Shown: positions 18,052 to 30,389, counted from the stretch's first letter. The stretch: DNA of 64,000 nucleotides from Chloroflexota bacterium (GCA_002719295.1 PBHC01000005.1:32001-96000); one strand, 5' to 3'. The notes: generated by a model not told the origin, from the sequence alone. Made by a program: numbers and translations.

Positions 18052-18081
18052 AATTTCCTCAAAATATTTCTCTTCTTAGTA

Positions 18082-18816
18082 CTAATGATGGCAAGCTGCA
18101 CAATCAGTAGGTCCTCCATTTTTTCTATGGCAATTAACACATTGCCCCATCTTTAAAGGTTCTACCTGGTAGACCTTTTCCATGCTAGCCACATCACCAT
18201 GACAAGTTGAACATACCTGAGATGCAGGCACACTCTCTTTTCCTTCTAAATCTAGACGTTCTGGGACATTCCCAATTGCGGAAGGATGGTTAGTTAAATA
18301 ATTAATGTGTGCTGAGTGTACAAATCTTACATGATCAGGAAGCCTATGAACCCTTCGCCAGTTAATAGGGGATGCCATTTCTGAATCAACAACAACTTGT
18401 TTATCTTCAGCATTTTCAAAAATACCTGAAGCTTCTCTTAGTTTTTTTAAATCTTCACTTTCGTAACTTCCAACTGCTCTATGACAACTTGCACATAATT
18501 CCACTGCAGGGACATGAGCTGAAGATGCTTTAGCAACTGTTCTATGGCAAAAAGTACAATCCATGCCTAATCCACCTTCAGATACTGGAGCTGCATGTTT
18601 TGTATGAGGAAAATTAATAGGCTGATCAAATGTTTGTTCAAATCCAAGAACAGGTAGTGGCTGTCCTAGCCATGCGTTGAAAAGTCCTGCTAACAAAATT
18701 GAAAATATTGCAAGTGTGGTTAGCCCACCTAATCCTACTAAAGGAATAAGAACTTTTACCCATAGTGGAGTGGTTCTGTCTAATTCTTTTATTCTATTTA
18801 TAATTTTTTTTATAAT
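18082..18816 (-). CDS. actA: Alternative complex III pentaheme cytochrome c
   Basis: Five CxxCH motifs (CTFCH, CASCH, CSTCH, CVNCH, CAACH). The ORF track starts at TTG 18696, but the frame stays open upstream through a TM helix to ATT 18816, which follows GGAG; the start position is uncertain. Confidence 0.88.
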   Translation of the reverse strand: MIKKIINRIKELDRTTPLWVKVLIPLVGLGGLTTLAIFSILLAGLFNAWLGQPLPVLGFEQTFDQPINFPHTKHAAPVSEGGLGMDCTFCHRTVAKASSAHVPAVELCASCHRAVGSYESEDLKKLREASGIFENAEDKQVVVDSEMASPINWRRVHRLPDHVRFVHSAHINYLTNHPSAIGNVPERLDLEGKESVPASQVCSTCHGDVASMEKVYQVEPLKMGQCVNCHRKNGGPTDCAACHH

Positions 18817-18831
18817 TTTTTTTCTCCAATA

Positions 18832-19125
18832 TTATTGCCAGAATCTTGGATAAATTCTTTCTAGCACTGGATATATATTGAAAAAAGCCAACAGGAAGAA
18901 TGTAATAATTGATGCTAATCCGATAAATCCAATAATATAAAGTATTGGTCTAAGTTTATTAAACTTATTGCTTATAGTTTTTGAATCTACAGCAGATGGG
19001 ATAATTGCATGTGCTACTAATAAAATAGGACCAGTTAAAATAGCTGATACTAGTGCTAACGTTAAGAACGTTATTGTTCTAGCTATTTCGCTCCACTCTC
19101 CAGCTGTGGGTGCAAACGGATCCAA
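18832..19125 (-). CDS. Small two-TM membrane protein heading the ACIII operon
   Basis: AGGAGG Shine-Dalgarno 9 nt before TTG; two hydrophobic helices. Confidence 0.8.
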   Translation of the reverse strand: MDPFAPTAGEWSEIARTITFLTLALVSAILTGPILLVAHAIIPSAVDSKTISNKFNKLRPILYIIGFIGLASIITFFLLAFFNIYPVLERIYPRFWQ

Positions 19126-19284
19126 AGTAATAGCCCTCCTGATGTTTTTTCTGAATTACATTAATCTTAGATCATTCTACTATTTTTTTCTTTAAAAGGG
19201 ACCTTATTTTTATGCAAATATTTTAATTTAATTGCAATATTCTTTTAAAGGATTTTAAATTTATATATTTTTGAAAGGGATGTT

Positions 19285-20280
19285 TTGATTAATAAAGACA
19301 AATTGATATGGATTTATGAGACTATGTGTAGGATAAGACTTTTTGAAGAATCTATGCTTGAACAAACTTATAAAGGCAATTCTATGGGAGTCACTCATCC
19401 TTCAGATGGACAGGAAGCTGTTCCCACTGGAATATGTGCTCATTTAACAGAAAAAGACTGGATAGGGTCTACTCATAGAGGACATGGGCATTGCATTGCA
19501 AAAGGACTTGAAACAGATAAAATGATGGCAGAAATCATGGGGAAATATACGGGAAACTGCAAAGGCAAAGGCGGATCTATGCATATAGCTGATTTTTCTA
19601 AAGGAATGCTTGGAGCAAATGCTATAGTAGGAGCTTCTATTCCTTTAGCAGTCGGAGCTGCATTAACTGCTAAATATCAAGGAAAAGAAAAAGATTCTAT
19701 AGGTGTTGCATTTTTCGGTGACGGAGCCTCCTCTCAAGGAGTCTTGCATGAATCTATGAATTTAGCTTCTATTTGGAAATTACCTGTTATTTTTGCTTGC
19801 GAAAATAACCAATATGCAGAAGCTACACCTTCTTGGTATGCAGTTTCAGTTGAAGACATAGCTGATAGAGCAGCATCATATAACATTCCAGGTGTAATTG
19901 TTGATGGAATGGATGTTTTTCAAGTATATGAAGCAGCTGAAGAAGCCGTGTCTAGAGCTAGAAAAGGTTTAGGACCTACTCTTTTAGAGTTGAAAACATA
20001 TAGATACCATGGCCATTTTCATGCCGATCAGCCTGAAAAATATAGAACAGAAGCTGAAGAAAAAGTTTGGAAAAATAAAGATTGTATTAAAAGCTTTGAA
20101 AAAAAAGTCCTTGATCAAAAATTAATGACTAAAACAGAATTGAATACATTGAAAAAAAATATAGAAAAAGAAATAGAAAATGCAGTTGAGTTTGGACTTT
20201 CAAGTCCACTCCCACCCACTGAGACATTATACGAAGATGTATACGTAAATTATTCAAATGACTTAAAAGGATTAAGATAA
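19285..20280 (+). CDS. TPP-dependent dehydrogenase E1 alpha (acetoin/pyruvate dehydrogenase family)
   Basis: GQEA, STHRGHGH, GKGGSMH, GDGA...ENNQY TPP motif, TYRYHGH. Confidence 0.95.
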   Translation: MINKDKLIWIYETMCRIRLFEESMLEQTYKGNSMGVTHPSDGQEAVPTGICAHLTEKDWIGSTHRGHGHCIAKGLETDKMMAEIMGKYTGNCKGKGGSMHIADFSKGMLGANAIVGASIPLAVGAALTAKYQGKEKDSIGVAFFGDGASSQGVLHESMNLASIWKLPVIFACENNQYAEATPSWYAVSVEDIADRAASYNIPGVIVDGMDVFQVYEAAEEAVSRARKGLGPTLLELKTYRYHGHFHADQPEKYRTEAEEKVWKNKDCIKSFEKKVLDQKLMTKTELNTLKKNIEKEIENAVEFGLSSPLPPTETLYEDVYVNYSNDLKGLR

Positions 20281-20299
20281 TACTATTCAAGAGGAAATT

Positions 20300-21361
20300 A
20301 TGACTATAAATAACCTAAATGGATTAGGTCCTGGATTTGATGTAAAGGGATCTGAAATGAGATACAGAGATGCTTTTAATAACACGCTGAGATCAGAGCT
20401 TGAACATGATGAAAATGTGCTTATAATTGGAGAGGATATTTCAGGAGGATTTGATAAAAAAACTAAAGAGCCATTAGATGCTTGGGGCGGACCATTTGCT
20501 GCTACAAAAGGTCTTGTTCAAGATTTTGGTGTAGAAAGAATAATGGATGCTCCAATTTCTGAAGCTGGGTTTGTAGGGGCAGCTATAGGAGCTGCTTTGA
20601 CTGGTTTAAGACCAGTAGTAGATCTAATGTATTTTGATTTTACTACTGTAGCATTTGACCAATTGTTATCAAATGCTGCTAAGAGTAGATATATGTTTGG
20701 AGGGCAAACTAAAGTCCCTCTTACTCTTTTTGCAAGATCTGGGGGGGGTACTGGACATGCAGCTCAACACTCTAGCGCTTTTTATTCAATCTTAGCCCAT
20801 ATTCCTGGATTAAAAGTCGTTACTCCTTCAGACCCTTATTCAGTCAAAGGATTACTATCTGCAGCTATAAGGGATGATGATCCCGTATTTGTTGTAAATG
20901 ATAAAAAATTGATTAATATGACAGGATTTGTACCAGATGAAGATTATCAAATAGATCTAGGAAAAGGAAGGTACACTAAAGAAGGAAGCGATATAACTTT
21001 AGTTGGAATGAGCTATACTTCTATTGTTTGTAAAGAAGCTTCAGAAAAATTAGAAAAAATAGGTGTAAATGCAGAGGTTATAGATCTTTTATCTTTATCT
21101 CCATTAGATGAACAAATTGTTATTGATTCTGTAAAGAAAACCAATAGGATCGTAATAGTTGATGAAGATAATCCAAGGGCAAGTATTGCTAGTGAAATTG
21201 CTGCGGTTGTATCAGATAAGGCTTTTGATTATTTAGATGCTCCAGTCAAAAGAGTAACAGCTCCTCACACGCCAGTTCCATATAGTAAAGGCTTGGAAGA
21301 TGAATTCATGCCAGATAGTAATGATGTTTTTGAAACTGTCAAAAAATTATTAGATATTTGA
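20300..21361 (+). CDS. TPP-dependent dehydrogenase E1 beta (AcoB-like)
   Basis: GEDI, WGGPFAATKGL, DAPISEAGFVG, AAQHS, LDAPVKRV. Confidence 0.95.
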   Translation: MTINNLNGLGPGFDVKGSEMRYRDAFNNTLRSELEHDENVLIIGEDISGGFDKKTKEPLDAWGGPFAATKGLVQDFGVERIMDAPISEAGFVGAAIGAALTGLRPVVDLMYFDFTTVAFDQLLSNAAKSRYMFGGQTKVPLTLFARSGGGTGHAAQHSSAFYSILAHIPGLKVVTPSDPYSVKGLLSAAIRDDDPVFVVNDKKLINMTGFVPDEDYQIDLGKGRYTKEGSDITLVGMSYTSIVCKEASEKLEKIGVNAEVIDLLSLSPLDEQIVIDSVKKTNRIVIVDEDNPRASIASEIAAVVSDKAFDYLDAPVKRVTAPHTPVPYSKGLEDEFMPDSNDVFETVKKLLDI

Positions 21362-21700
21362 TTTTTTTATTTCTTCAATTAGTTCTTTTTTGGAATCACA
21401 AATAACAGCTTTGTCATTAATCGCGTAAGATAACAAACTGTTGTAAGGAAAGATTCCACTTTCATGTCCATCTGACCATAATGGTTGCAATGCATATTTT
21501 CCTACTATAAGATAATCAACTACTATTATGTCGTCTGGGACTTCAGTTACTTTCAATAGCTTTTTACCAGTTAATTCTTCCACACAATTAGCGCAGGCAC
21601 ATTGAAGTCTAAGATACTTATACGGATATATGCAAGAAATATCCTTTTGCCAAATAATTTCTAAGCCATCACTTAATCTATTTACAGCTTTTGGTTCCAT
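21350..21700 (-). CDS. DUF971 / gamma-butyrobetaine hydroxylase N-terminal-like metal-binding protein
   Basis: LRLQCACANC, VGKYAL, WSDGHESGIF. Confidence 0.88.
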   Translation of the reverse strand: MEPKAVNRLSDGLEIIWQKDISCIYPYKYLRLQCACANCVEELTGKKLLKVTEVPDDIIVVDYLIVGKYALQPLWSDGHESGIFPYNSLLSYAINDKAVICDSKKELIEEIKKSNI

Positions 21701-21800
21701 AAAATAATATGTTTCTAATATGATTTTCTAACATTTGAAATAATGTTACTGAAATTCTAAAAAAAAATTATACATAAAAAAATACATAATAGGTGAAAAA

Positions 21801-22862
21801 ATGAGCGATACTATAAAAGTTGGAATTGTTGGGGCTGGTGGAAATACTGTTTTGAAACATATCCCTCTTCTTCAAAAAATAGATGGAGTTGAAATTGTTT
21901 CTGTGGCTAATAGATCAATTAAGTCATCTAGTGCAGTAGCTTCACAATTTGAGATTAAGAATTATTATGATAATTGGCATGAAGTGGTATATGATAATGG
22001 GCTTGATGCAGTTGTAATTGGTACTTGGCCATATATGCACAAAAAACTTACTATTGAAGCTTTGCAATCTGGAAAACATGTATTATGCGAAGCTAGAATG
22101 TGTATGAACGCAGAAGAAGCTATGGAAATGTATGATTGCGCTCAAACATATTCTAATTTAGTTGCACAAATTGTTCCAGCGCCACACACCTTACCGATAG
22201 ATAAGACAATTATTAGGCTTATTTCATCAGGATATATAGGCGATTTAGTAAATCTTCGTGGAATGGTTACTGCAGGAAATGACTTTCCTAAAGAGAATCA
22301 AGAATTTCATTGGAGAAATAATAGAGACTTATCAGGAAACAATATAATGCAAATGGGTATTTGGTATGAAGCCATTATGAGATGGCTAGGTCCTGCAAAA
22401 TCTATCACAGCAAATGCTCAAACAATTATGAATCCTAGAGTAGATTATGATGGAAACTATGCTTACACTGATGTCCCTGATCATCTTGACGTACTTTGTG
22501 AAATGGTTAGTGGAGGAACAGCTAATTTACAATTTACTATGGTTTCAGGAATGGCTCCTGAGTCTGAAATGTGGATACATGGTACTAGAGGAACATTAGT
22601 AGTAAAAACTGAGACAACTGATGATCCTGGAGCTCCTGCATTAAAACTCTATGGTGCAGAACAAGGGCAAAAAAGATTAGAAGAAATAGAAGTTCCTAAT
22701 GAAGAGAAAGGTGCTTGGAGAGTAGAAGAAGAGTTTATAAATGCAATCAGAGGTGAAGAAATCATTACCCATACTAACTTTACAGATGGCGTAAAGTATA
22801 TGAAATTTACAGATGCTATTTTTGACTCGTATTCTACTGGACAAAAAATCTACTTAACCTAA
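21801..22862 (+). CDS. Gfo/Idh/MocA-family NAD(P)-dependent oxidoreductase
   Basis: VGIVGAG, GKHVLCEARM (EKP variant); first gene of the pxp-oad operon. Confidence 0.92.
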   Translation: MSDTIKVGIVGAGGNTVLKHIPLLQKIDGVEIVSVANRSIKSSSAVASQFEIKNYYDNWHEVVYDNGLDAVVIGTWPYMHKKLTIEALQSGKHVLCEARMCMNAEEAMEMYDCAQTYSNLVAQIVPAPHTLPIDKTIIRLISSGYIGDLVNLRGMVTAGNDFPKENQEFHWRNNRDLSGNNIMQMGIWYEAIMRWLGPAKSITANAQTIMNPRVDYDGNYAYTDVPDHLDVLCEMVSGGTANLQFTMVSGMAPESEMWIHGTRGTLVVKTETTDDPGAPALKLYGAEQGQKRLEEIEVPNEEKGAWRVEEEFINAIRGEEIITHTNFTDGVKYMKFTDAIFDSYSTGQKIYLT

Positions 22863-22863
22863 T

Positions 22864-23628
22864 ATGAACAAAATTGACTTAAATGCTGATATCGGAGAAT
22901 CTTTTGGTTCATACAAGCTTGGCTATGATGAAGAGATAGTAAAATATATTTCATCTGCAAACATAGCTACTGGATTTCATGCAGGAGATCATAATTGGAT
23001 AAAAAAGACTGTTGATTTATCAAAAAAATACAATGTAGCTATAGGTGCTCATCCATCTTATCCTGATTTAGCAGGTTTTGGAAGAAGAGAAATGTCTATG
23101 TCTTCTGATGAAATAGAAAACTTAATTAAATATCAGGTTGGTGCTCTTATTGGATTTGTTGGCATAGAAAATATTGAACACGTAAAACCTCATGGGGCTT
23201 TGTATAATAAGGCAGTAAATGATTCAGTTACTGCAAAAGCTATAATCAATGCAATTAAATCTATTAGCGATAAACTTATACATGTTGTTTTGGCAGGATC
23301 GTTATGGGAAAAAATAGCATTAGATTCAGGAGTTAAGGTTTCTAGAGAGACTTTTGCTGATAGAGAATTTATGTCAGATGGAACTCTATGTCCTAGATCA
23401 ATTGATGGATCTGTAATAGAAGACTCAGAAAAAATAGTAAATAGAACGCTTAAGATGATTAAAGATAAAGAAGTTGATACTTTTGAAGGGGATAAGATTA
23501 AGATTGATTTCGATTCAATTTGTTTACATGGTGACACTGAAGGGGCAGTAGAAATTGCTAGAAGTATAAATAATTCATTTCAAAAAAACAATATAATCAT
23601 TACTTCTATGTCGAATGTTATTTTATGA
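22864..23628 (+). CDS. pxpA: LamB/YcsF family, 5-oxoprolinase subunit A-like
   Basis: DLNADIGESFG, GFHAGD, GAHPSYPD, GFGRR, HVKPHGALYN, SICLHGD. Confidence 0.95.
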   Translation: MNKIDLNADIGESFGSYKLGYDEEIVKYISSANIATGFHAGDHNWIKKTVDLSKKYNVAIGAHPSYPDLAGFGRREMSMSSDEIENLIKYQVGALIGFVGIENIEHVKPHGALYNKAVNDSVTAKAIINAIKSISDKLIHVVLAGSLWEKIALDSGVKVSRETFADREFMSDGTLCPRSIDGSVIEDSEKIVNRTLKMIKDKEVDTFEGDKIKIDFDSICLHGDTEGAVEIARSINNSFQKNNIIITSMSNVIL

Positions 23629-24293
23629 AAAATTTTTTTGTTATAAATTTTCATGGTGACTCAACTTTAGTGATTAAACTTGGTGAAGAAATTGATATAA
23701 AAACTAATCAAATGCTTCATGAGATCGTTCATCTTCTAGAAATAGATTTAAAATTCAACGATTATATTGAAGATATTTACCCAACTTTTAATAGCATAAT
23801 TATTGATTATGATAATTTATTAATCGATTTTGAAAATTTAAAATCTCTGATTAATAAAAAGCTGTTATCTTTTATAAAAAAATATAAAACAGATTCTGAC
23901 GAGAAAAAAATTATAGAAGTTCCAGTAAAGTACGGAAGTGAAAATGGTCCTGACTTAAGTATGATGTCTGACAAACTTAAAATTTCTGAAGAAAAGATCA
24001 TAGAAATTCATACTTCTAGTTTATACAGAATATTTATGATAGGATTCATGCCAGGTTTTCCCTATTTAGGAGGACTAAGTAAAAAAATATCATTTCCAAG
24101 GCTTTCTACTCCTAGGATTTCTGTTCCAGCAGGCTCTGTTGGTATTGCAGGGATTCAAACAGGAATTTATCCTTTTGCATCACCAGGTGGTTGGAATATT
24201 ATTGGAAAAACTGAAAAAAAATTATTTGACATAAATTTAAATCCTCCAGCATTACTAGAGGCAGGAACAAATTTGAGATTTGTAAAAATATGA
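23625..24293 (+). CDS. pxpB: 5-oxoprolinase subunit B-like (AHS1/KipI; urea carboxylase CT subdomain homolog)
   Basis: IGFMPGFPYLGG, PRISVPAGSVGIAG, GIYPFASPGGWNIIG. Confidence 0.95.
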   Translation: MKNFFVINFHGDSTLVIKLGEEIDIKTNQMLHEIVHLLEIDLKFNDYIEDIYPTFNSIIIDYDNLLIDFENLKSLINKKLLSFIKKYKTDSDEKKIIEVPVKYGSENGPDLSMMSDKLKISEEKIIEIHTSSLYRIFMIGFMPGFPYLGGLSKKISFPRLSTPRISVPAGSVGIAGIQTGIYPFASPGGWNIIGKTEKKLFDINLNPPALLEAGTNLRFVKI

Positions 24294-25330
24294 TAAAAGT
24301 TATAAATTCTGGAATACTTTCTAGCTTTCAAGATAAAGGTAGATATGGACAAAAAAAATTTGGGGTGTCTAAATCAGGATCTCTAGATTCTTTTTCTTTC
24401 GAGTTAGCTAATAGATTGACAGGGAATGACATTGACGAACCATGCATTGAAACTTTAGGAGGTTTTTCATGTGTTTTTTATATAGAATCTATAGTTTCAA
24501 TTACAGGGCCAATTGAGTTTTTTTCTGTAAATAATAGCTTCATTTATAAAACCAATTCTTCTATAAAGTTAAAATCTGGTGATAAATTAGATATTCCAAT
24601 TCCTCAAAAAGGGAATATTTTTTATTTATCAGTATCAGGGGGATTCAAAATTGATAAAATTTTAGATTCTTACTCATATCATCAACCTTCAAATATAACT
24701 AATAATTTTAAGATTTCCTCAGGTGATGAAATAGAATTAAATCCAACAAAACAACAAAATTTATTCGTTTCAGAAACCTCTTTTTTCGAAAAAAGAATAT
24801 TTAATAATGAAAAAATTAAGATTATTTATAATGAAGAATCTAGGTCTGACAAAATTAAAAACTTATTCGAAAATAATGAATTTACAATTTCTGATCAATT
24901 TAGCCGACAAGGGATTAGATTAATTGGAAATCCAATAAGTATATTTAAGGATCAAAATGAGATTTCTTCAGAAGTTTCTCCTGGTACAGTTCAACTTCCT
25001 CCAGATGGTCAACCGATTATATTATTAAATGATTCTCAAACTACTGGAGGGTATAAAAAAATAGGAGTTATCCCTAGGTTTGAATTGTCAAAATTATCTC
25101 AAAAACCGATTTCCTCTAGAATAAAATTTTCAGAGATTTCATTAAGTGATTCTATAAATGAATTTCGTGAAATGAGAACGGAATTTGATAATATCAATAT
25201 TTATAATTACATAAACAGAGTACTTGAAATAAATGGTAGATTGATTTCCGTTCAAATTTTAGAAAATAATAGTATAATGTCGATATCTGATAATGAGCAA
25301 TTTGACATAATCGAGGAAAATTTTGAATAA
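24290..25330 (+). CDS. pxpC: 5-oxoprolinase subunit C-like (AHS2/KipA; biotin-dependent carboxyltransferase family) with C-terminal extension
   Basis: FQDKGRYG, ANRLTGN, GTVQLPPDGQPIILLNDSQTTGGY. Confidence 0.92.
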   Translation: MIKVINSGILSSFQDKGRYGQKKFGVSKSGSLDSFSFELANRLTGNDIDEPCIETLGGFSCVFYIESIVSITGPIEFFSVNNSFIYKTNSSIKLKSGDKLDIPIPQKGNIFYLSVSGGFKIDKILDSYSYHQPSNITNNFKISSGDEIELNPTKQQNLFVSETSFFEKRIFNNEKIKIIYNEESRSDKIKNLFENNEFTISDQFSRQGIRLIGNPISIFKDQNEISSEVSPGTVQLPPDGQPIILLNDSQTTGGYKKIGVIPRFELSKLSQKPISSRIKFSEISLSDSINEFREMRTEFDNINIYNYINRVLEINGRLISVQILENNSIMSISDNEQFDIIEENFE

Positions 25331-25700
25331 TTCTATATTAGATGGATTTAATTTATTTTGGATAGGTACAAGCGTAGTATTTTTAGTTTTAATAGTACTT
25401 TTGATATCAATAAAAATTCTAACTTTTTTTGAAAAAGAGTTTTTTCAAAAAGAATTAAAGAAAAGAAAGATTATTAATCATGAAAATGAAGATAATTTAA
25501 TAGATGTAGCTGCTGCCATTGCAGTTTCATTATTTAAAAAGAGTAAAATCCGAACTAATGAAATTGCTGCTGCTGTTGCTGTTTCAATGTATGAAAATAG
25601 CAAAAGTAAAACTATTATGAGTAATATAAATTCGTTCCAATCATCATGGATTACTATTAATAGATCAAGAATGATGAATAGAAAATCTAGAAGGATATAA
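25323..25700 (+). CDS. OadG/MmdD-like membrane anchor subunit of a Na+-translocating decarboxylase
   Basis: Single N-terminal TM (GTSVVFLVLIVLL), AAAIAV motifs, C-terminal SSWxxxxR. Confidence 0.85.
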   Translation: MNNSILDGFNLFWIGTSVVFLVLIVLLISIKILTFFEKEFFQKELKKRKIINHENEDNLIDVAAAIAVSLFKKSKIRTNEIAAAVAVSMYENSKSKTIMSNINSFQSSWITINRSRMMNRKSRRI

Positions 25701-25701
25701 A

Positions 25702-26163
25702 TTGAGTAAATATAAATTAAATATTAATGGCCAACATTTCGATGTAGAAATCTTATCTGAAAATAATAGTTCTTATGAGGTGATGGTCAATGGTGAGATT
25801 CTGATGGTAAACAAAGATGTTGATTCACAAATTCCTATTTCAAAACCTACTATACCTCAACTTCCCAAAACAAAACCTTTGCAAACTTCTACTCCAAATT
25901 CTGAAAAAAAACAAGAATCTAAGATTGAATCCTTAGACTCTAAGGTAGAGGGGAATTCAATTAAGGCACTAATGCCAGGTAAAGTTTTAAAAGTTTTAGT
26001 TTCAGAAGGAGAAAGCGTTGAATCTGGGACTCCATTATTAGTTATTGAATCAATGAAAATGGAAAATATCATCTCTTCCACTAAATCCGGAAAGGTAAGT
26101 GCCGTTCATGTAAAAATTGATGATAATGTTCAGTATGATCAACCTTTAGTTGAAATAAATTAA
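25702..26163 (+). CDS. Stand-alone biotin carboxyl carrier subunit (MmdC/GcdC-like)
   Basis: N-terminal KYKLNINGQHFDVEI, Pro/Ser/Thr linker, MPGKV, IESMKMEN biotinylation motif. Confidence 0.93.
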   Translation: MSKYKLNINGQHFDVEILSENNSSYEVMVNGEILMVNKDVDSQIPISKPTIPQLPKTKPLQTSTPNSEKKQESKIESLDSKVEGNSIKALMPGKVLKVLVSEGESVESGTPLLVIESMKMENIISSTKSGKVSAVHVKIDDNVQYDQPLVEIN

Positions 26164-26180
26164 ATCTTGAGAAAATATTT

Positions 26181-27380
26181 ATGATTGATTACATAGAACC
26201 ATTAATTGAAGGAATCAATGATTTAATTTCTAACCCCAAAATGATAATAATGTGGATTATTTCAGCTTTTCTTTATTATGTAGGTATTTATAAAAAGAAA
26301 GAACCTTTATTGTTGGTACCTATATCAACCGGAATTTTACTAGCAAATCTTCCTATGGGAGAATTGATTAGAATTGGAGGGAATGGAGAACCAGATGGGT
26401 TTCTAAGGATTTTTCAAAATATTGGTATGACAAATGATCTTCTTCCGTTATTAATATTTTTAGGGATGGGAGCTTTGACTGATTTTGAACCAGTTCTATC
26501 TAACCCTAAAACTTTACTTTTGGGTGCAGCTGCTCAAGTTGGAGTATTTGCAGCTTTGTTAGGAGCTTTATTTATAAGCCTAACTCCATTTTTTGATTTT
26601 GGTCTTCTAGAGGCGGCTTCTATAGGTATTATAGGGGGAGCTGATGGTCCTACTACAATATTCATTTCAACAAGAATGAGAGAATTGGGCAATTCTTTAC
26701 CTTTATATAATATGAGTGATATTGTGGGTGCAACTGCAGTTGCGGCATATTCTTATATGGCTTTAGTTCCTATAATTCAGCCTCCATTAATTAGACTTTT
26801 TACAACAAAAAATGAACGTAGAATTAGAATGGATTATTCAGAAAAGAAGATTTCTAAGAGAACTAAAATAATTTTTCCAATACTGACTATTTTAATAGTT
26901 AGTATTTTGGTTCCAGATGCATCTCCTCTTATTTCAATTATGATGTTTGGTAATATTTTGAGAGAATCAGGAGTTGTTGATAGATTGGCAAAAACTGCTC
27001 AAAATGAGTTAATGAATGTAGTTATAATTTTACTAGGATTATCAGTTGGTGCAACAATGCCTGCAAGTGTATTTTTGAAAGTAGAAACAATATCCATTTT
27101 TATTCTTGGATTAATCTCTTTTGTATTTGCTACTATTTCTGGGATTTTACTTGCAAAAGTGATGAACTTGTTCTTAAGTAAACCTATAAATCCAATGATT
27201 GGAGCTGCAGGAGTTTCCGCAGTACCTATGGCAGCAAGAGTAGTTCAAAATGAAGCATTTAAAGAAGATCCAAATAACTATATTCTGATGCATGCAATGG
27301 GTCCTAATATAGCAGGTGTTATTGGAACAGCTACAGTGGCTGGTGTTCTTTTAGCAGTTGTTCCACAATTGGTGGCATAA
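26181..27380 (+). CDS. oadB: Na+-translocating carboxybiotin decarboxylase beta subunit
   Basis: LLGAAAQ, IGIIGGADGPT, AAYSYMALVP, NPMIGAAGVSAVPMAAR, HAMGPN. Confidence 0.96.
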   Translation: MIDYIEPLIEGINDLISNPKMIIMWIISAFLYYVGIYKKKEPLLLVPISTGILLANLPMGELIRIGGNGEPDGFLRIFQNIGMTNDLLPLLIFLGMGALTDFEPVLSNPKTLLLGAAAQVGVFAALLGALFISLTPFFDFGLLEAASIGIIGGADGPTTIFISTRMRELGNSLPLYNMSDIVGATAVAAYSYMALVPIIQPPLIRLFTTKNERRIRMDYSEKKISKRTKIIFPILTILIVSILVPDASPLISIMMFGNILRESGVVDRLAKTAQNELMNVVIILLGLSVGATMPASVFLKVETISIFILGLISFVFATISGILLAKVMNLFLSKPINPMIGAAGVSAVPMAARVVQNEAFKEDPNNYILMHAMGPNIAGVIGTATVAGVLLAVVPQLVA

Positions 27381-27383
27381 ATA

Positions 27384-28139
27384 ATGGAGTACTCTTTATA
27401 TATTTATTTGATCTTATCTATTATTTGTTTATTAATTGGCTTCTTAGGAGGGTTTTTAGGAATAGCGTTAGGAGCAGTAAGATTGCCTATAATAATTATT
27501 TTAGGGATTGAACCTATTATTGCAGCATCTACAAATTTGCTTGCTGTTATCTTTGGTTCATTTGCCGGTTTAATACCCGCTATAAAACAAAACAGAGTTC
27601 CTATAAAAGCATCTATTAGAATTGCTATACCATCAATGATTGCCGCATTCTTAGGTGGGTATTTTGCATTTCAAATCCCTGAATTATATCTATTAATAAT
27701 TATGATTTTTTGTCTTGTTGTATCAGGCTTAGTCATGACTTTTTACAAAATAAGTGAGTTTGAAGATAAGCCTTCAAACAAAAATTCTTTATATGAAGTT
27801 ACTGTGGGTATTCTTATATCTTATTTCGGAGGTACTGTAGGCTTGGCTTTAGGAGTTCTAAGAGTTCCTGCTTTTGTATATTTCTTAAGGATGAATATTA
27901 AGAAAGCTGGTGGTATAAACCTATTTTTGTCTATTTTAGTAGGTATTTCAGCTTATGCAGGACATTCGTTTTCAGGAGGATTTGATTATTTTCTAGTATT
28001 AACTATTGTTTTTCCTACAATAATTGGGATGTATTGTGGATCAAGATTTGTAAAAATTGCTAATGATAATCAGTTACGTAAAATTTTAGGAATTACTTTG
28101 TTGGTACTATCCCTAGTTTTATTAATTAGAGAGCTTTAG
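27384..28139 (+). CDS. TauE/SafE (TSUP) family permease
   Basis: About 8 TM helices in two repeats with GGxxGxAxGxxRxP motifs. Confidence 0.85.
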   Translation: MEYSLYIYLILSIICLLIGFLGGFLGIALGAVRLPIIIILGIEPIIAASTNLLAVIFGSFAGLIPAIKQNRVPIKASIRIAIPSMIAAFLGGYFAFQIPELYLLIIMIFCLVVSGLVMTFYKISEFEDKPSNKNSLYEVTVGILISYFGGTVGLALGVLRVPAFVYFLRMNIKKAGGINLFLSILVGISAYAGHSFSGGFDYFLVLTIVFPTIIGMYCGSRFVKIANDNQLRKILGITLLVLSLVLLIREL

Positions 28140-28165
28140 GCAGAATCTATTTGACCCTGCCTAAA
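28135..28165. terminator. Hairpin between convergent tauE-like gene and sodN
   Basis: tttaggcag-N13-ctgcctaaa inverted repeat; no downstream U-tract on either strand. Confidence 0.45.
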
Positions 28166-28172
28166 AAAATAA

Positions 28173-28598
28173 TTATTTTTTAGTTTCCCAAAAAATATCC
28201 CCTATTTCTTCTAATGCTGCTTTAAACTCTTTAGCTTTTCCAAGGTCTACATTAACTTTTACAAAAGATCCTAGCTTACATGCATTCCAAACTTTTTCAT
28301 GTAAATCAGGGTATTTTTCTAAATGTTCTGGTTTGAAATAATCAGTCCATATAACCAAAATGTCATCTTTTGCTTTTTTTGCGTGCTCTTCTTTTGCAGC
28401 AACATATCTAGCCATTGAATTACCTAGACTTGCAGATGGTCCTTTTGAATAATCTAGTTCTTCAAGCAATTCCGTCATTCTGATCACTGTTTGAGCCGCC
28501 TGTAGTGCATCATGTGGATCATAAATTCCACACGGGATATCACAGTGACTAGTTGCTTCATGTACATTGAATACTTTTTCAAAAATATTATTTAACAT
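28173..28598 (-). CDS. sodN: Nickel superoxide dismutase precursor
   Basis: Nickel-hook HCDIPCGIYDP after a 17-aa leader; WTDYFK; FWETK. Confidence 0.97.
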   Translation of the reverse strand: MLNNIFEKVFNVHEATSHCDIPCGIYDPHDALQAAQTVIRMTELLEELDYSKGPSASLGNSMARYVAAKEEHAKKAKDDILVIWTDYFKPEHLEKYPDLHEKVWNACKLGSFVKVNVDLGKAKEFKAALEEIGDIFWETKK

Positions 28599-28645
28599 TT
28601 TTTCTCCTTGTTTAATTTTTTTCTTGTGGTTGTAGAATATATATT

Positions 28646-29110
28646 ATGATAAATTTACGAAGTTTGATAATACCTTTTGTTAAAAATTTATTGAATATAC
28701 TATTTTTTCCAAAAAACTACATGATTTTCAAAATAACTGAAATGAATAGTAATAGTATGGAACCAAATTTTCATGAAGGTTCCTATTATTTGGTAAAAAA
28801 AATATCTGATTTTTCCTCAATAAAAAGATTCGATGTAATTATTTATTTTTGCAAAATCCACTCATTAAATCATATAAAAAGAGTAGTTGGGCTACCCAAT
28901 GAAACATTAAATGTGTATGACAATTCAATTTTTGTTAATACCAAAAAAATCGATAATATTTCTATTCCTGATTCAATAAACATTGAATGTAAAATTAGAT
29001 CAATTGAATATTTTTTATTGTCAGATAATATATTTTTATTAGGAAAATCTTGCGATTCAATAAAGAATGGCCCAATAAAAAAAGAAAATATTATAGGTTC
29101 AATTATTTAA
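28646..29110 (+). CDS. S26-family peptidase, probable SodN maturation protease
   Basis: NSMEP catalytic Ser, IKRVVGLP Lys, DS..GPI...IIG; divergent from sodN; no clear TM anchor. Confidence 0.7.
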   Translation: MINLRSLIIPFVKNLLNILFFPKNYMIFKITEMNSNSMEPNFHEGSYYLVKKISDFSSIKRFDVIIYFCKIHSLNHIKRVVGLPNETLNVYDNSIFVNTKKIDNISIPDSINIECKIRSIEYFLLSDNIFLLGKSCDSIKNGPIKKENIIGSII

Positions 29111-30389
29111 AATAATTGTTAATTAGTTTTTTCGAAGACAATGCTGCTGTTTCCATAGTGTTTGGTAAACTATTTATAGTCCAATCTCCTACATAATATA
29201 GATTTCTACTTTTATGATTCAGATTGATTTTTTTTGTAGATATTTGTGTTGCCTTTGGAGATCTTATTACAAGAGACCTTATGTTTTTTATGTTTTCAGA
29301 AATATTCAATTCTTTTCTTAATATTTTTTCATATTCTTGAATTAATTTTTGATTAGTAACCTTTAATAGATTCCCAACTGCACTTAGAGAAATTACGATT
29401 CTATATTCTTTATTTGATTTTCTAAATTTATTATCAGAAAATACCCATTCTAATTTTGAATTAGTAAAACTAATAAAATCTTCGTTGGTTACCTTTTTAT
29501 CAAACCAAAAATAGATATTGATTATTCCATCAGTTCTTAAATTATTATTTTGGGTCTTATTATTTGTGGGTGAATCGAAACTTTTTATCCCCCCAATAGT
29601 AGTCGCTATTATGACTTTGTCATACACATAATTTTTATTTTTGCTCATTAATGAATATTTTTTTTGAGAATATTTTATATTTTCTATTTTTTCTCCTAGA
29701 TATAAGTTTGATTCATTTTTCTTTATGTAATTTTCAAAATTTTTATTTAGAATTTTGCTAAAAGGTTTTTTGAAATAACAAATTCCTATATTTTTTTTAT
29801 AATTGAAAATCATAATCTGAAATAAATTTATCGCATGATTCATTGTTATTTCGTTAAGTTTAGAATTAAAAGCCGGAACACAAATTATTTCCCAAAACTT
29901 TTTTATCATGTCATTATTTTGACCATTTTTTTCTAACCATGATTTGAAGGAAGTTTTAGAATTATAATCTTTTGATTTTGATAATTTATATAAACCTAAA
30001 ATTATCTTTAATCTTTCATTGAATTTTAAGTTTTTGTAGTTTAAAACAGAAAAAATTAAATTTAGTGGATATAAAGGAATGCTTGATTTAATATAGTGAG
30101 TTTTTGAGTTATCTTGAACTGGAATATTAATTTTCTTTTTTATAGATAAATATTGCTTAACATTTAGTTTTTCTAGGACTTCTAGAAAATTTTTATATGA
30201 AGGTAAAAATATGTGCTGTCCTATGTCTACAGTAATATTTTTGTTTTTTATAGATCCAGCTCTCCCCCCTAAAGTTTTTTTTGTTTCAAAAATATCTACT
30301 TTATAACCTTTTTCAATAAGAAATACTGATGCAGCTATTCCTGAAATTCCTCCCCCAATTATTGCTATTTTTTGATTTTTGTTTTTCAA
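29103..30389 (-). CDS. hpnE: Hydroxysqualene dehydroxylase-like FAD oxidoreductase
   Basis: IIGGGISG, LGGRAGS, DIGQHIF, GDWT..LPNTMETAALS; next to hpnC. Confidence 0.8.
   Translation of the reverse strand: MKNKNQKIAIIGGGISGIAASVFLIEKGYKVDIFETKKTLGGRAGSIKNKNITVDIGQHIFLPSYKNFLEVLEKLNVKQYLSIKKKINIPVQDNSKTHYIKSSIPLYPLNLIFSVLNYKNLKFNERLKIILGLYKLSKSKDYNSKTSFKSWLEKNGQNNDMIKKFWEIICVPAFNSKLNEITMNHAINLFQIMIFNYKKNIGICYFKKPFSKILNKNFENYIKKNESNLYLGEKIENIKYSQKKYSLMSKNKNYVYDKVIIATTIGGIKSFDSPTNNKTQNNNLRTDGIINIYFWFDKKVTNEDFISFTNSKLEWVFSDNKFRKSNKEYRIVISLSAVGNLLKVTNQKLIQEYEKILRKELNISENIKNIRSLVIRSPKATQISTKKINLNHKSRNLYYVGDWTINSLPNTMETAALSSKKLINNYFK

What the first reader, a model, noticed from the sequence alone, without database searches (positions are those of the whole stretch)
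21801..28139. PxpABC joined in one operon with a Na+-translocating decarboxylase that lacks its normal alpha subunit: candidate new ion-coupled (de)carboxylase
Seen in sequence: gfo-pxpA-pxpB-pxpC-oadG-bccp-oadB-tauE are co-oriented with junctions of +1, -4, -4, -8, +1, +17 and +3 nt. There is no OadA/MmdA/GcdA-type carboxyltransferase and no ATP-grasp biotin carboxylase in the operon or the window. OadB keeps its functional motifs (GGADGPT Asp, YSY, NPxIGxAGVSAVPMAAR). Established: Na+-pumping decarboxylases need a carboxyltransferase to load biotin; PxpB/PxpC are homologous to the two carboxyltransferase subdomains of urea carboxylase; PxpA (LamB/YcsF) is tied to lactam ring opening. Inference: PxpBC is the missing carboxyltransferase. 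Either an N-carboxy substrate (allophanate/carbamate-like) is decarboxylated to pump Na+, or the pump runs in reverse so the Na+ gradient rather than ATP carboxylates biotin to activate 5-oxoproline or another lactam/urea-type compound for hydrolysis by PxpA. I do not know of a characterised system like this.
Basis: partly seen in the sequence, partly recalled or inferred. Interest (0 to 1): 0.9.

Follow-up and report, generated by a model that had tools for sequence, protein, structure and literature searches.

The report
Sodium-driven biotin module with PxpABC
A small marine Chloroflexota genome keeps its only biotin carrier in one operon with a sodium-pump subunit and oxoprolinase-like genes and has no ATP-using biotin carboxylase, which suggests that the sodium gradient rather than ATP loads CO2 onto biotin.

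Summary
In detail: gfo-pxpA-pxpB-pxpC-oadG-bccp-oadB-tauE lie on one strand with the stated junctions, and the window holds no alpha-type carboxyltransferase or biotin carboxylase (BC). The interpretation needs revising. Elsewhere the genome has an MmdA-type and a short OadA-like carboxyltransferase, so "lacks its alpha" is true only of the operon. This BCCP is the cell's only biotin carrier.

In 151 genomes of the order, 73 have OadB and no BC, 47 have BC and no OadB, 26 have both and 5 have neither. PxpC lies within 10 kb of OadB in 56 of the 80 genomes that hold both. A free-standing BCCP sits beside oadB in 25 of 26 sampled PxpC-containing genomes, against 1 of 13 without PxpC.

In the window's own family (12 genomes), the same pxpABC-BCCP framework carries either oadG/oadB (8, all BC-less) or no oadB with a BC in the genome (4). 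All tested members have fatty-acid synthesis genes and one MmdA-type transferase. None of the 11 searched has methylmalonyl-CoA mutase.

Best reading: OadGB stands in for BC as a Na+-coupled generator of carboxybiotin, which feeds malonyl-CoA synthesis and probably PxpBC/PxpA. It is uncharacterised and I rate it a new variant of a known kind.

The parts
21801..22862 (+). gfo: Gfo/Idh/MocA-family NAD(P) oxidoreductase, first gene of the co-oriented block
   Evidence: PF01408 81 bits and PF22725 54 bits. It lies 1 nt before pxpA. It sits upstream of pxpA in family members, but it is not part of the pxp/oad neighbourhood in other families of the order.
22864..23628 (+). pxpA: LamB/YcsF-family protein (5-oxoprolinase subunit A type), the presumed hydrolase
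   Evidence: PF03746 305.9 bits; NF003814 332 bits against a cut-off of 226.
23625..24293 (+). pxpB: carboxyltransferase subdomains C-D (KipI / PxpB type)
   Evidence: PF02682 212 bits; TIGR00370 212.6 bits against 145.55. Nearest solved structures are 2PHC, 2ZP2 (KipI), 5DUD_B (YbgJ) and 9YX5_W.
24290..25330 (+). pxpC: carboxyltransferase subdomains A-B (KipA / PxpC type), fast-evolving in this genus
   Evidence: PF02626 179 bits; below the NCBIfam cut-offs. Nearest solved structures are 5DUD_A YbgK (1.7e-92), 3VA7 urea carboxylase (5e-71), and 9YX5_V / 3MML_A MSMEG_0435 (about 5e-67). It is 22-48% identical to the 11 other PxpCs aligned.
25323..25700 (+). oadG-like small membrane subunit of the Na+ pump (TTG start)
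   Evidence: PF04277 26.0 bits against a cut-off of 27. Orthologues in sister genera score 33.4-33.5 bits. It overlaps pxpC by 8 nt.
25702..26163 (+). BCCP: free-standing biotin carboxyl carrier, the only one in the genome
   Evidence: PF00364 64.6 bits. The E-S-M-K-M-E motif has an invariant Lys. The only other Biotin_lipoyl matches in the genome lie in open frames of 428 and 397 aa. Each of the 11 family genomes has exactly one small carrier.
26181..27380 (+). oadB: Na+-translocating decarboxylase beta subunit, the only copy in the genome
   Evidence: PF03977 469 bits; TIGR01109 459.7 bits against 190.6. All nine residues reported as essential in the Salmonella beta subunit are conserved in the alignment to 6IVA_A: Glu40, Asp203, Tyr229, Arg304, Asn311, Asn373, Gly377, Ser382 and Asn412.
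27384..28139 (+). tauE/SafE-family anion permease, last gene of the block
   Evidence: PF01925 139.8 bits. It lies downstream of the BCCP or oadB in both the OadB version and the BC version of the family operon. An RNA-library contig bridges oadB and tauE.

Best explanation
The operon holds the cell's single biotin carrier (BCCP), flanked by the membrane subunits OadG and OadB and preceded by pxpABC.

In this lineage the ATP-grasp biotin carboxylase has been lost. OadGB takes its place by working as a reversible, Na+-coupled interconverter of biotin and carboxybiotin. In a marine cell, Na+ flowing inward through OadB would carboxylate BCCP-biotin.

The carboxybiotin then has two uses:
(a) The unlinked housekeeping MmdA-type acyl-CoA carboxyltransferase uses it to make malonyl-CoA for type II fatty-acid synthesis.
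(b) Probably, PxpB/PxpC uses it. This is the split homologue of the urea-carboxylase carboxyltransferase domain. It would N-carboxylate a lactam or amide, with 5-oxoproline as the default candidate, so that PxpA can hydrolyse it and the carboxyl group leaves as CO2. This would be an ATP-free analogue of urea amidolyase.

Shown here: the gene content, the conservation, the complementarity of OadB and BC, the single BCCP, and an OadB that is intact by sequence.

Inferred: the direction of the pump, the use of this BCCP by MmdA, the biotin dependence of PxpBC, and the substrate.
For: 1. No BC in the window's genome or in 4 relatives that are 95-97% complete, one of them closed. This was checked by family search, by tblastn and by protein search, which hit only CarB-like proteins of about 1,100 aa and one 381-aa ATP-grasp protein.

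2. Order sample of 151 genomes: BC-/OadB+ 73, BC+/OadB- 47, both 26, neither 5.

3. Family sample of 11 genomes plus G142: OadB is found in exactly the 8 BC-less genomes, BC in the other 4, and none has both or neither.

4. The family framework gfo-pxpABC-BCCP-...-tauE is the same in both versions. BC-less genomes have oadG and oadB around the BCCP. Three BC+ genomes have pxpABC-BCCP without oadB. G157 has BC-BCCP-tauE.

5. Each of the 11 family genomes has exactly one small biotin carrier, the one in this operon.

6. Demand for carboxybiotin: 2 KAS genes in 5 of 5 family genomes tested. FabD is in G036, G116 and G142. One MmdA-type carboxyltransferase is in each of the 5 family genomes of the order sample.

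7. Other sources are missing. Methylmalonyl-CoA mutase was found in 0 of 11. OadA-type carboxyltransferase was found in only 4 of 11, and not in G142.

8. The essential OadB residues are conserved.

9. Precedent: in vitro carboxylation of pyruvate and acetyl-CoA by reversal of these Na+ pumps (Dimroth and Hilpert 1984). I saw this only as a citation and title in PMC13147460 and PMC7274780.

10. The Pxp link: PxpC and OadB lie within 10 kb in 56 of 80 genomes. A BCCP sits beside oadB in 25 of 26 PxpC+ genomes against 1 of 13 PxpC- genomes, whereas the MmdA type is near-universal (141 of 151) and so cannot explain that pattern. BC is embedded in pxp clusters of unrelated bacteria (7 of 80 loci, plus G049). 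PxpC/PxpB homologues bind BCCP-biotin in a cryo-EM structure (PMC13012033).

11. RNA-library contigs at 99% identity or more cover parts of gfo, pxpA, oadB and tauE, and bridge the bccp/oadB and oadB/tauE junctions.
Against: - No experiment bears on the direction of the pump.
- The window's own genome has an OadA-like protein of 507 aa with no biotin domain. Oxaloacetate could therefore supply carboxybiotin by transcarboxylation, without reversing the pump.
- 26 genomes of the order have both BC and OadB, so the two are not strictly alternative.
- Genomes are related. Within the family, the tree is compatible with as few as one switch between the OadB and BC versions.
- 12 BC-less OadB+ genomes have no PxpC, and four genomes of one family have pxpABC without OadB. 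Pxp and the pump can each exist alone.
- OadB-linked PxpCs do not form a lineage of their own.
- The canonical PxpABC is described as ATP-dependent, with ATPase activity in co-purified PxpB/PxpC (passages in PMC13274462 and PMC8453981). That argues against a general need for biotin.
- PxpC here scores below the NCBIfam cut-offs.
- The window genome is 81% complete, and FabD was not found in it.
Confidence: 0.5

Rival explanations
1. This is an ordinary forward Na+ pump whose alpha subunits are encoded elsewhere. OadGB and the BCCP work with the OadA-like and/or MmdA-type carboxyltransferase. Oxaloacetate loads biotin. The carboxyl group then goes either to acetyl-CoA (a transcarboxylase-like route to malonyl-CoA) or to OadB, which expels Na+. 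PxpABC is a normal ATP-dependent 5-oxoprolinase that merely shares a neighbourhood, for example because glutamate feeds the TCA cycle.
For: - An OadA-type carboxyltransferase co-occurs with OadB in 62 of 73 BC-less OadB+ genomes.
- In G021, mmdA and a full-length oadA with its own biotinyl domain form a cluster with icd and mdh.
- The window genome has an OadA-like and an MmdA-type gene.
- Pxp-less families have oadG-oadB without a BCCP.
- The canonical PxpABC is described as ATP-dependent.
Against: - G116, G142, G152 and G153 have OadB, the BCCP, an MmdA type and fatty-acid synthesis, but no OadA-type protein, no BC and (in the three searched) no mutase. That leaves no donor for carboxybiotin.
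- This reading does not explain why the free-standing BCCP tracks PxpC.
- It does not explain why pxpABC-BCCP stays linked in the BC versions of the family.
- It does not explain why OadB and BC exclude each other within the family.
Confidence: 0.25
2. PxpB/PxpC act here as a regulator of the biotin hub rather than as an enzyme that uses it. As reported for MSMEG_0435-0436 in mycobacteria, they would bind the BCCP and sequester its biotin, throttling carboxybiotin flow to the MmdA-type transferase under some conditions.
For: - The cryo-EM structure and a roughly 50% drop in propionyl-CoA carboxylase activity reported in PMC13012033 (passages read).
- pxpABC is linked to the sole housekeeping BCCP in all 12 family genomes, whatever the carboxylating device.
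- There is no distinct PxpC lineage.
Against: - PxpA, the presumed hydrolase, is always kept with PxpB and PxpC in these loci. That points to an enzyme.
- Translational coupling of pxpC, oadG and bccp (overlaps of 8 nt and a gap of 1 nt) implies production in fixed proportion, which is unlike a conditional inhibitor.
- In the paper, the mycobacterial proteins accumulate in stationary phase under their own control.
Confidence: 0.15
3. One reading: PxpBC takes a carboxyl group from an N-carboxylated substrate (allophanate- or carbamate-like), loads it onto biotin, and OadB decarboxylates it to pump Na+ out.
For: Only the gene order and the homology of PxpB/PxpC to a carboxyltransferase.
Against: - I know of no abundant N-carboxy substrate, and none is suggested by the neighbouring genes.
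- This reading leaves the BC-less cells without carboxybiotin for the MmdA-type transferase only if the substrate is absent, so lipid synthesis would depend on that substrate.
- BC-containing pxp clusters and the BC versions within the family can only run in the carboxylating direction.
Confidence: 0.05

Closest known systems
Oxaloacetate decarboxylase Na+ pump OadA/OadB/OadG (Klebsiella, Salmonella, Vibrio; PDB 6IVA/6IWW)
   Same: A beta subunit with all tested essential and Na+-binding residues conserved, matching 6IVA_A at 9e-104. A small gamma-like membrane subunit. A biotin carrier with the MKM motif.
   Different: No alpha subunit in the operon. The biotin carrier is a separate protein, not the C-terminal domain of OadA. 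The OadA-like gene of this genome is unlinked and has no biotin domain. The stretch of the Salmonella chain between about residues 60 and 116 has no counterpart here. pxpABC sits in the place of the alpha gene. The likely physiological direction is reversed (inference).
Methylmalonyl-CoA decarboxylase MmdABCDE (Veillonella, Propionigenium) and its in vitro reversal (Dimroth and Hilpert 1984; seen as a citation only)
   Same: The same parts list if the unlinked MmdA-type carboxyltransferase (779 bits to TIGR01117) is counted: a free-standing BCCP, a beta subunit and a small anchor subunit. By its title, the reversed enzyme carboxylates acetyl-CoA in vitro, which is the reaction proposed here.
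   Different: mmdA is on another contig and scores below the equivalog cut-off (779 against 998.8). No methylmalonyl-CoA mutase was found in 11 family genomes, so there is no evident methylmalonyl-CoA supply. Here the reversal would be the normal and essential mode.
PxpABC prokaryotic 5-oxoprolinase (B. subtilis, E. coli YbgJKL, C. glutamicum)
   Same: The three gene families in the order pxpA-pxpB-pxpC. The nearest solved structures are E. coli YbgK and YbgJ.
   Different: It is translationally coupled to oadG-bccp-oadB. There is no PxpT/YcsG-type transporter; a TauE-family permease is present instead. PxpC scores below the NCBIfam cut-offs. The ATP dependence reported for the canonical enzyme may be replaced here by carboxybiotin (inference).
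[quoted passage not shown]
   Same: They are PxpC/PxpB homologues, at about 5e-67 and 1e-43 to the profiles built here. In the paper they bind BCCP domains and hold the biotin in a pocket 'positioned to participate in a carboxylation reaction'.
   Different: There the partner is an ATP-dependent carboxylase and the reported effect is inhibition. No substrate is known. The genes are not in an operon with the carrier.
Urea carboxylase / urea amidolyase (PDB 3VA7, 5I8I)
   Same: Its carboxyltransferase domain equals PxpC plus PxpB. The chemical logic proposed here, N-carboxylating an amide so that it can be hydrolysed, is that of urea amidolyase (established knowledge).
   Different: It is a single polypeptide with its own BC and BCCP, and it uses ATP. 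Its hydrolase is an amidase-family allophanate hydrolase, not a LamB/YcsF protein. The residues needed for urea could not be checked because the paper is not held.
pxp clusters that contain an ATP-grasp biotin carboxylase (Clostridia-type MAGs, Cupriavidus, and a second cluster in G049); uncharacterised
   Same: pxpB-pxpC, then a gap the size of a BCCP gene, then BC, then pxpA, in 6 loci. In a 7th locus, BC lies farther away. G049 has pxpA-BC-pxpB-pxpC. The place that oadG/oadB occupy here is taken by BC there.
   Different: Those clusters use ATP and soluble proteins, with no membrane subunit. No literature was found on them.

Membership tests
Na+-translocating decarboxylase (OAD/MMD/GCD type) | A beta subunit of the OAD_beta family with the Na+-binding and essential residues | tested here: met
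   PF03977 469 bits; TIGR01109 459.7 bits against 190.6. Glu40, Asp203, Tyr229, Arg304, Asn311, Asn373, Gly377, Ser382 and Asn412 of 6IVA_A are all conserved.
Na+-translocating decarboxylase (OAD/MMD/GCD type) | A small gamma/delta membrane subunit | tested here: inconclusive
   PF04277 26.0 bits against a cut-off of 27; TIGR01195 24.2 bits against 36.05. Orthologues at the same position in sister genera score 33.4-33.5 bits.
Na+-translocating decarboxylase (OAD/MMD/GCD type) | A biotin carrier with the biotinyl-lysine motif | tested here: met
   PF00364 64.6 bits. ESMKME with an invariant Lys in 12 of 12 aligned sequences.
Na+-translocating decarboxylase (OAD/MMD/GCD type) | An alpha-type carboxyltransferase (OadA, MmdA, GcdA) encoded with the pump | tested here: not met
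   None in the operon or the window. The genome's only PF01039 match is on C8 and its only PF02436 match is on C1. No MmdA or OadA homologue lies within 3.5 kb in 16 related loci.
Na+-translocating decarboxylase (OAD/MMD/GCD type) | Decarboxylation coupled to Na+ export as the physiological direction | not testable with these tools
   The distribution data argue for the reverse direction. This needs proteoliposome assays.
PxpABC 5-oxoprolinase | PxpA (LamB/YcsF), PxpB (CT_C_D) and PxpC (CT_A_B) in one cluster | tested here: met
   PxpA and PxpB score above the NCBIfam cut-offs. PxpC scores below them (205.9 against 230.2; 167.7 against 500).
PxpABC 5-oxoprolinase | ATP-dependent, biotin-independent hydrolysis of 5-oxoproline | not testable with these tools
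   The context points to a link with biotin: the sole BCCP lies downstream of pxpC in 12 of 12 family genomes. The founding paper, PMC5625064, is not held.
Urea-carboxylase-type biotin-dependent carboxyltransferase | Carboxyltransferase subdomains A-B and C-D | tested here: met
   The split form PxpC plus PxpB. Matches to 3VA7 at 5e-71 and 3e-17.
Urea-carboxylase-type biotin-dependent carboxyltransferase | An ATP-grasp biotin carboxylase in the same enzyme or operon | tested here: not met
   No Biotin_carb_C match in the genome or in 7 other family genomes. tblastn and the protein search found only CarB-like ATP-grasp proteins.
Urea-carboxylase-type biotin-dependent carboxyltransferase | The catalytic residues defined for urea carboxylation | not tested
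   The paper that lists them (PMC3308809) is not held.
Transcarboxylase (12S + 5S + 1.3S) | 12S-like and 5S-like carboxyltransferases plus a small biotin carrier, with no BC | tested here: inconclusive
   All three kinds of gene exist in this genome, on three contigs. The 5S-like gene is missing from G116, G142, G152 and G153. Assembly into one enzyme cannot be tested here.

The most novel reading that the evidence does not exclude
A large part of an order of marine Chloroflexota (Dehalococcoidia-type) has given up the ATP-dependent biotin carboxylase. These cells would run the OadGB 'decarboxylase' backwards as their normal, essential way of making carboxybiotin. The Na+ gradient would then pay both for malonyl-CoA synthesis (lipids) and, through PxpBC and PxpA, for the uphill opening of 5-oxoproline or a related lactam. 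That would be a biotin-dependent, ATP-free amidolyase.
Probability: 0.35. Interest if true: 0.9.

Novelty: new variant of a known kind. Interest (0 to 1): 0.75.

Why it matters
Biotin carboxylase is regarded as the universal entry of CO2 into biotin enzymes and as essential for bacterial fatty-acid synthesis. Here 73 of 151 sampled genomes of one order, several of them closed, have fatty-acid synthesis genes (where tested), an acyl-CoA carboxyltransferase and a BCCP but no biotin carboxylase. They carry OadB instead.

If OadB works in reverse in vivo, this would be the first physiological case of ion-gradient-driven carboxylation replacing an ATP-dependent housekeeping enzyme. Such reversal has been shown in vitro (1984) and proposed only hypothetically for autotrophs (PMC13147460).

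It would change energy budgets for abundant streamlined ocean bacteria. It would also give a concrete test system for the unresolved mechanism of PxpABC and for the role of the PxpB/PxpC homologues that bind BCCP in mycobacteria.

Tried and rejected
- **Taxon guess.** I first assumed the order was Flavobacteriales because of the low G+C and the OadB context. This was wrong: the named loci with the same layout are labelled Chloroflexota/Dehalococcoidia.
- **Complex prediction.** PxpB + PxpC + BCCP residues 82-153, each with a 12-row alignment, scored 0.00 against a mark of 0.32. The controls were not run and there is no verdict either way.
- **Order-wide Biotin_lipoyl search.** The listing was cut (478 matches not shown) and could not give adjacency. 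I replaced it by fetching OadB loci.
- **Rfam.** No match at E up to 1 in 18000-30000, so no riboswitch hints at a substrate.
- **Promoter and terminator scan.** Promoter-like sites are at chance level (45 against 41.7 expected). The + strand terminator-like hits all lie inside genes, so they say nothing useful about transcript ends.
- **RNA-library contigs.** In four runs of one study, none lay on pxpB, pxpC or most of oadG. Contigs cannot show absence, and no contig bridged gfo/pxpA or pxpC/oadG.
- **PxpC tree (FastTree, 110 rows).** I looked for an OadB-specific PxpC clade and found none. The window's family sits on long branches.
- **PxpA+B+C tree of the family.** It is too poorly resolved to count OadB/BC switches; 1 to 3 are compatible.
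- **The unknown 455-aa protein beside mmdA as a possible BC substitute.** It was found only in G000, G036 and G085, so it does not track BC loss.
- **Papers not held.** Niehaus 2017 and Fan 2012. I therefore could not check whether the purified PxpABC assay excluded biotin, nor which urea-carboxylase residues matter.
- **Literature searches for this system.** Searches found no paper linking pxp genes with oadB, and none describing BC-less Dehalococcoidia.
- **Earlier findings.** Nothing for this genome or for the search words.

Full report
**1. The observation**

Pfam and NCBIfam give:
- a Gfo/Idh/MocA oxidoreductase;
- PxpA (LamB/YcsF) and PxpB (CT_C_D), both above their NCBIfam cut-offs;
- PxpC (CT_A_B), below its NCBIfam cut-offs;
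- a weak OadG (26.0 bits against a cut-off of 27);
- a free-standing BCCP;
- a strong OadB (469 bits);
- a TauE-family permease.

The OadG assignment is backed by the orthologues at the same position in sister genera, which score 33.4-33.5 bits.

The BCCP has ESMKME with an invariant lysine.

The OadB translation holds GGADGPT, YSY and NPMIGAAGVSAVPMAAR. In an alignment to the solved Salmonella beta subunit, all nine residues that the structure paper reports as essential are conserved.

No alpha-type carboxyltransferase and no biotin carboxylase lie in the window.

**2. The rest of the genome**

The assembly is 1.27 Mb in 20 contigs and 81% complete. It contains:
- one MmdA-type carboxyltransferase of 518 aa on C8, between folK/DHPS and mdh;
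- one OadA/5S-like protein of 507 aa on C1, with no biotinyl domain;
- one OadB;
- three Biotin_lipoyl matches, of which only the operon's BCCP is a small carrier;
- no biotin carboxylase (BC), whether by family search or by tblastn with two BC proteins of the same order.

It has two KAS genes. So the pump does not lack canonical partners in the genome, and the operon's BCCP is the only biotin carrier the cell has.

**3. Who it is**

Named public loci with the same co-oriented layout are labelled Chloroflexota or Dehalococcoidia. My first guess, Flavobacteriales, was wrong.

**4. Conservation in the order (151 genomes, 61 families)**

| Feature | Genomes |
|---|---|
| OadB | 99 of 151 |
| PxpC (above cut-off) | 91 of 151 |
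| Both OadB and PxpC | 80 |

Of the 80 genomes with both, 56 have the two genes within 10 kb: 51 divergent, with a typical gap of about 2.1 kb, and 5 co-oriented. All five co-oriented cases belong to the window's family. Eleven more have both genes on the same contig but farther apart, and 13 have them on different contigs.

The usual layout is pxpC-pxpB-pxpA on one strand facing oadG-oadB-bccp on the other. The family layout is gfo-pxpABC-oadG-bccp-oadB-(DHDPS-like)-tauE. None of 16 loci has an MmdA or OadA homologue within 3.5 kb.

**5. Biotin carboxylase against OadB**

BC is found in 73 of 151 genomes.

| | OadB+ | OadB- |
|---|---|---|
| BC+ | 26 | 47 |
| BC- | 73 | 5 |

The MmdA-type carboxyltransferase is near-universal: 141 of 151 genomes, and 96 of 97 high-quality ones. 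It is therefore the housekeeping acyl-CoA carboxyltransferase whatever the source of carboxybiotin.

An OadA-type protein is in 62 of the 73 BC-less OadB+ genomes, against 10 of 26 and 13 of 47 in the other classes. In G021 it is full-length with its own biotinyl domain and sits in a cluster mmdA-oadA-icd-mdh. A canonical alpha therefore usually co-occurs with OadB, unlinked.

**6. The free-standing BCCP tracks PxpC**

| Group sampled | BCCP gene beside oadB |
|---|---|
| Pxp-adjacent loci | 15 of 16 |
| Genomes with pxpABC elsewhere | 10 of 10 |
| Genomes without PxpC (about five families) | 1 of 13 |

Since MmdA is everywhere and OadA often has its own carrier, this pattern is best explained by a tie between this BCCP and PxpABC.

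PxpC also co-occurs with OadB: 80 of 99 OadB+ genomes against 11 of 52 OadB- genomes. But 12 BC-less OadB+ genomes lack PxpC, and four genomes of one family have pxpABC without OadB. Each can exist without the other.

**7. The natural experiment inside the family**

The sample is 11 genomes from 10 genera, plus G142 from the order sample.
- OadB is found in exactly the eight BC-less genomes. BC is found in the other four. None has both or neither.
- Every one of the 11 has exactly one small biotin carrier, and it lies downstream of pxpC.
- G152, G153 and G154 have pxpABC-(oadG)-BCCP-oadB.
- G151, G155 and G156 have gfo-pxpABC-BCCP without oadB, with BC elsewhere.
- G157 has BC-BCCP-tauE, about 5 kb after pxpC.

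Other family data:
- Methylmalonyl-CoA mutase was found in 0 of 11.
- An OadA-type protein was found in 4 of 11, and not in G142.
- KAS was found in 5 of 5 tested.
- FabD was found in G036, G116 and G142, but not in the incomplete window genome.

In G116, G142, G152 and G153 I therefore see demand for malonyl-CoA, one carboxyltransferase and one carrier, and no donor of carboxybiotin other than OadB or Pxp.

The family tree is too poorly resolved to say whether the OadB/BC alternation reflects one event or three.

**8. Outside the order**

Of 80 PxpC loci from many phyla:
- 5 have BCCP-oadB downstream, and all are labelled Chloroflexota;
- 7 have an ATP-grasp BC next to or near the pxp genes (Clostridia-type MAGs, Cupriavidus, and one Bacillus locus where it lies farther off).

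G049 also has a second cluster, pxpA-BC-pxpB-pxpC.

On the PxpC tree, BC-linked and OadB-linked forms are scattered among stand-alone ones. The linkage is therefore a matter of genome organisation, not of a visibly distinct paralogue.

**9. Literature**

- PMC13012033 (passages read) reports that MSMEG_0435-0436, homologues of PxpC and PxpB, bind two BCCP domains of an acyl-CoA carboxylase and hold one biotin 'positioned to participate in a carboxylation reaction'. They lower propionyl-CoA carboxylase activity by about half and show no urea carboxylase activity.
- PMC13274462 and PMC8453981 (passages) describe PxpABC as ATP-dependent, with ATP hydrolysis by co-purified PxpB/PxpC. The mechanism is stated there as an assumption.
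[quoted passage not shown] It cites Dimroth and Hilpert 1984, whose title names carboxylation of pyruvate and acetyl-CoA by reversal of the oxaloacetate and methylmalonyl-CoA decarboxylase pumps. I saw that paper only as a citation.
- Seven searches found nothing on pxp genes linked to oadB or on BC-less Dehalococcoidia.
- Niehaus 2017 and Fan 2012 are not held.

**10. Expression**

Four marine metatranscriptome runs from one study hold contigs at 99% identity or more. They cover parts of gfo, pxpA, oadB and tauE, and bridge the bccp/oadB and oadB/tauE junctions. This is weak support for expression. DNA carry-over cannot be excluded, and contigs do not prove a single transcript.

**11. Reading**

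The module is best seen as the cell's biotin hub: the sole BCCP, the device that loads it, and pxpABC as a constant companion. The device is OadGB in BC-less lineages and BC in their cousins.

I put 0.5 on OadGB working as a Na+-coupled carboxybiotin generator that feeds the MmdA-type transferase and, probably, PxpBC/PxpA.

The main rival (0.25) is a forward pump, with oxaloacetate loading biotin through the OadA-like protein and an unrelated ATP-dependent oxoprolinase next door. This is possible for the window genome itself, but not evidently for the family members that lack OadA.

**12. Novelty**

All parts belong to known families. The combination, the loss of BC and the implied direction are not described in the literature I could search. 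I rate it a new variant of a known kind, with high interest because it makes Na+-driven carboxylation in vivo directly testable.

Noticed in passing
G000:C8:46657-48021 (L007:8658-10025, + strand), outside the window: A 455-aa protein with no Pfam or NCBIfam match lies between mmdA and mdh, where other families carry oadA and icd. It is 84% and 80% identical in G036 and G085, and was not found with this query in 8 other family genomes. Those three are among the four family genomes with an OadA-type match (the fourth is G154).
   Followed up: partly
window 21350-21700 (- strand): A small gene of the GBBH-like_N (DUF971) family, 64.7 bits, lies divergent from gfo. It is conserved at the same place in G036 and G085 (62% identity to the G085 copy). 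Its function and any link to the operon are unknown.
   Followed up: partly
L017:8279-9175, L018:6335-7219, L015:6879-7883: A DHDPS/NAL-family gene lies between oadB and tauE in three sister genera and is absent from the window's genus. Together with gfo and tauE it might point to a substrate pathway.
   Followed up: no
window 28173-29110 and 29103-30389: A Ni superoxide dismutase gene (sodN) with its signal-peptidase-like partner, and an HpnE-like amine oxidase gene, lie directly downstream. The sodN gene has by far the highest word depth of the laid stretch in the RNA-library contigs.
   Followed up: no
G012, G069, G105 (one family of the order, no OadB): These genomes hold 10 to 13 PYC_OADA matches each, in open frames of about 490-555 aa, together with three BC copies. 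This is a large paralogue expansion of OadA/5S-like carboxyltransferases.
   Followed up: no
L111:4983-6251 (G077): In a closed genome with OadB but no BC, OadA type or PxpC, a 422-aa ORF with no Pfam match lies directly upstream of oadB, and no BCCP is beside it. How biotin is carried and loaded there is unclear.
   Followed up: no
L108 (G021:C2:256000-268000): A cluster of mmdA, a 78-aa ORF, oadA with a C-terminal biotinyl domain, icd and mdh, unlinked to oadB. It looks like a transcarboxylase-type pair of carboxyltransferases set among TCA-cycle genes.
   Followed up: partly
L105 (G049:C2:1408000-1422000): A second, divergent pxp cluster in one genome has the order pxpA-BC-pxpB-pxpC, in addition to that genome's OadB-linked pxpABC.
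   Followed up: partly
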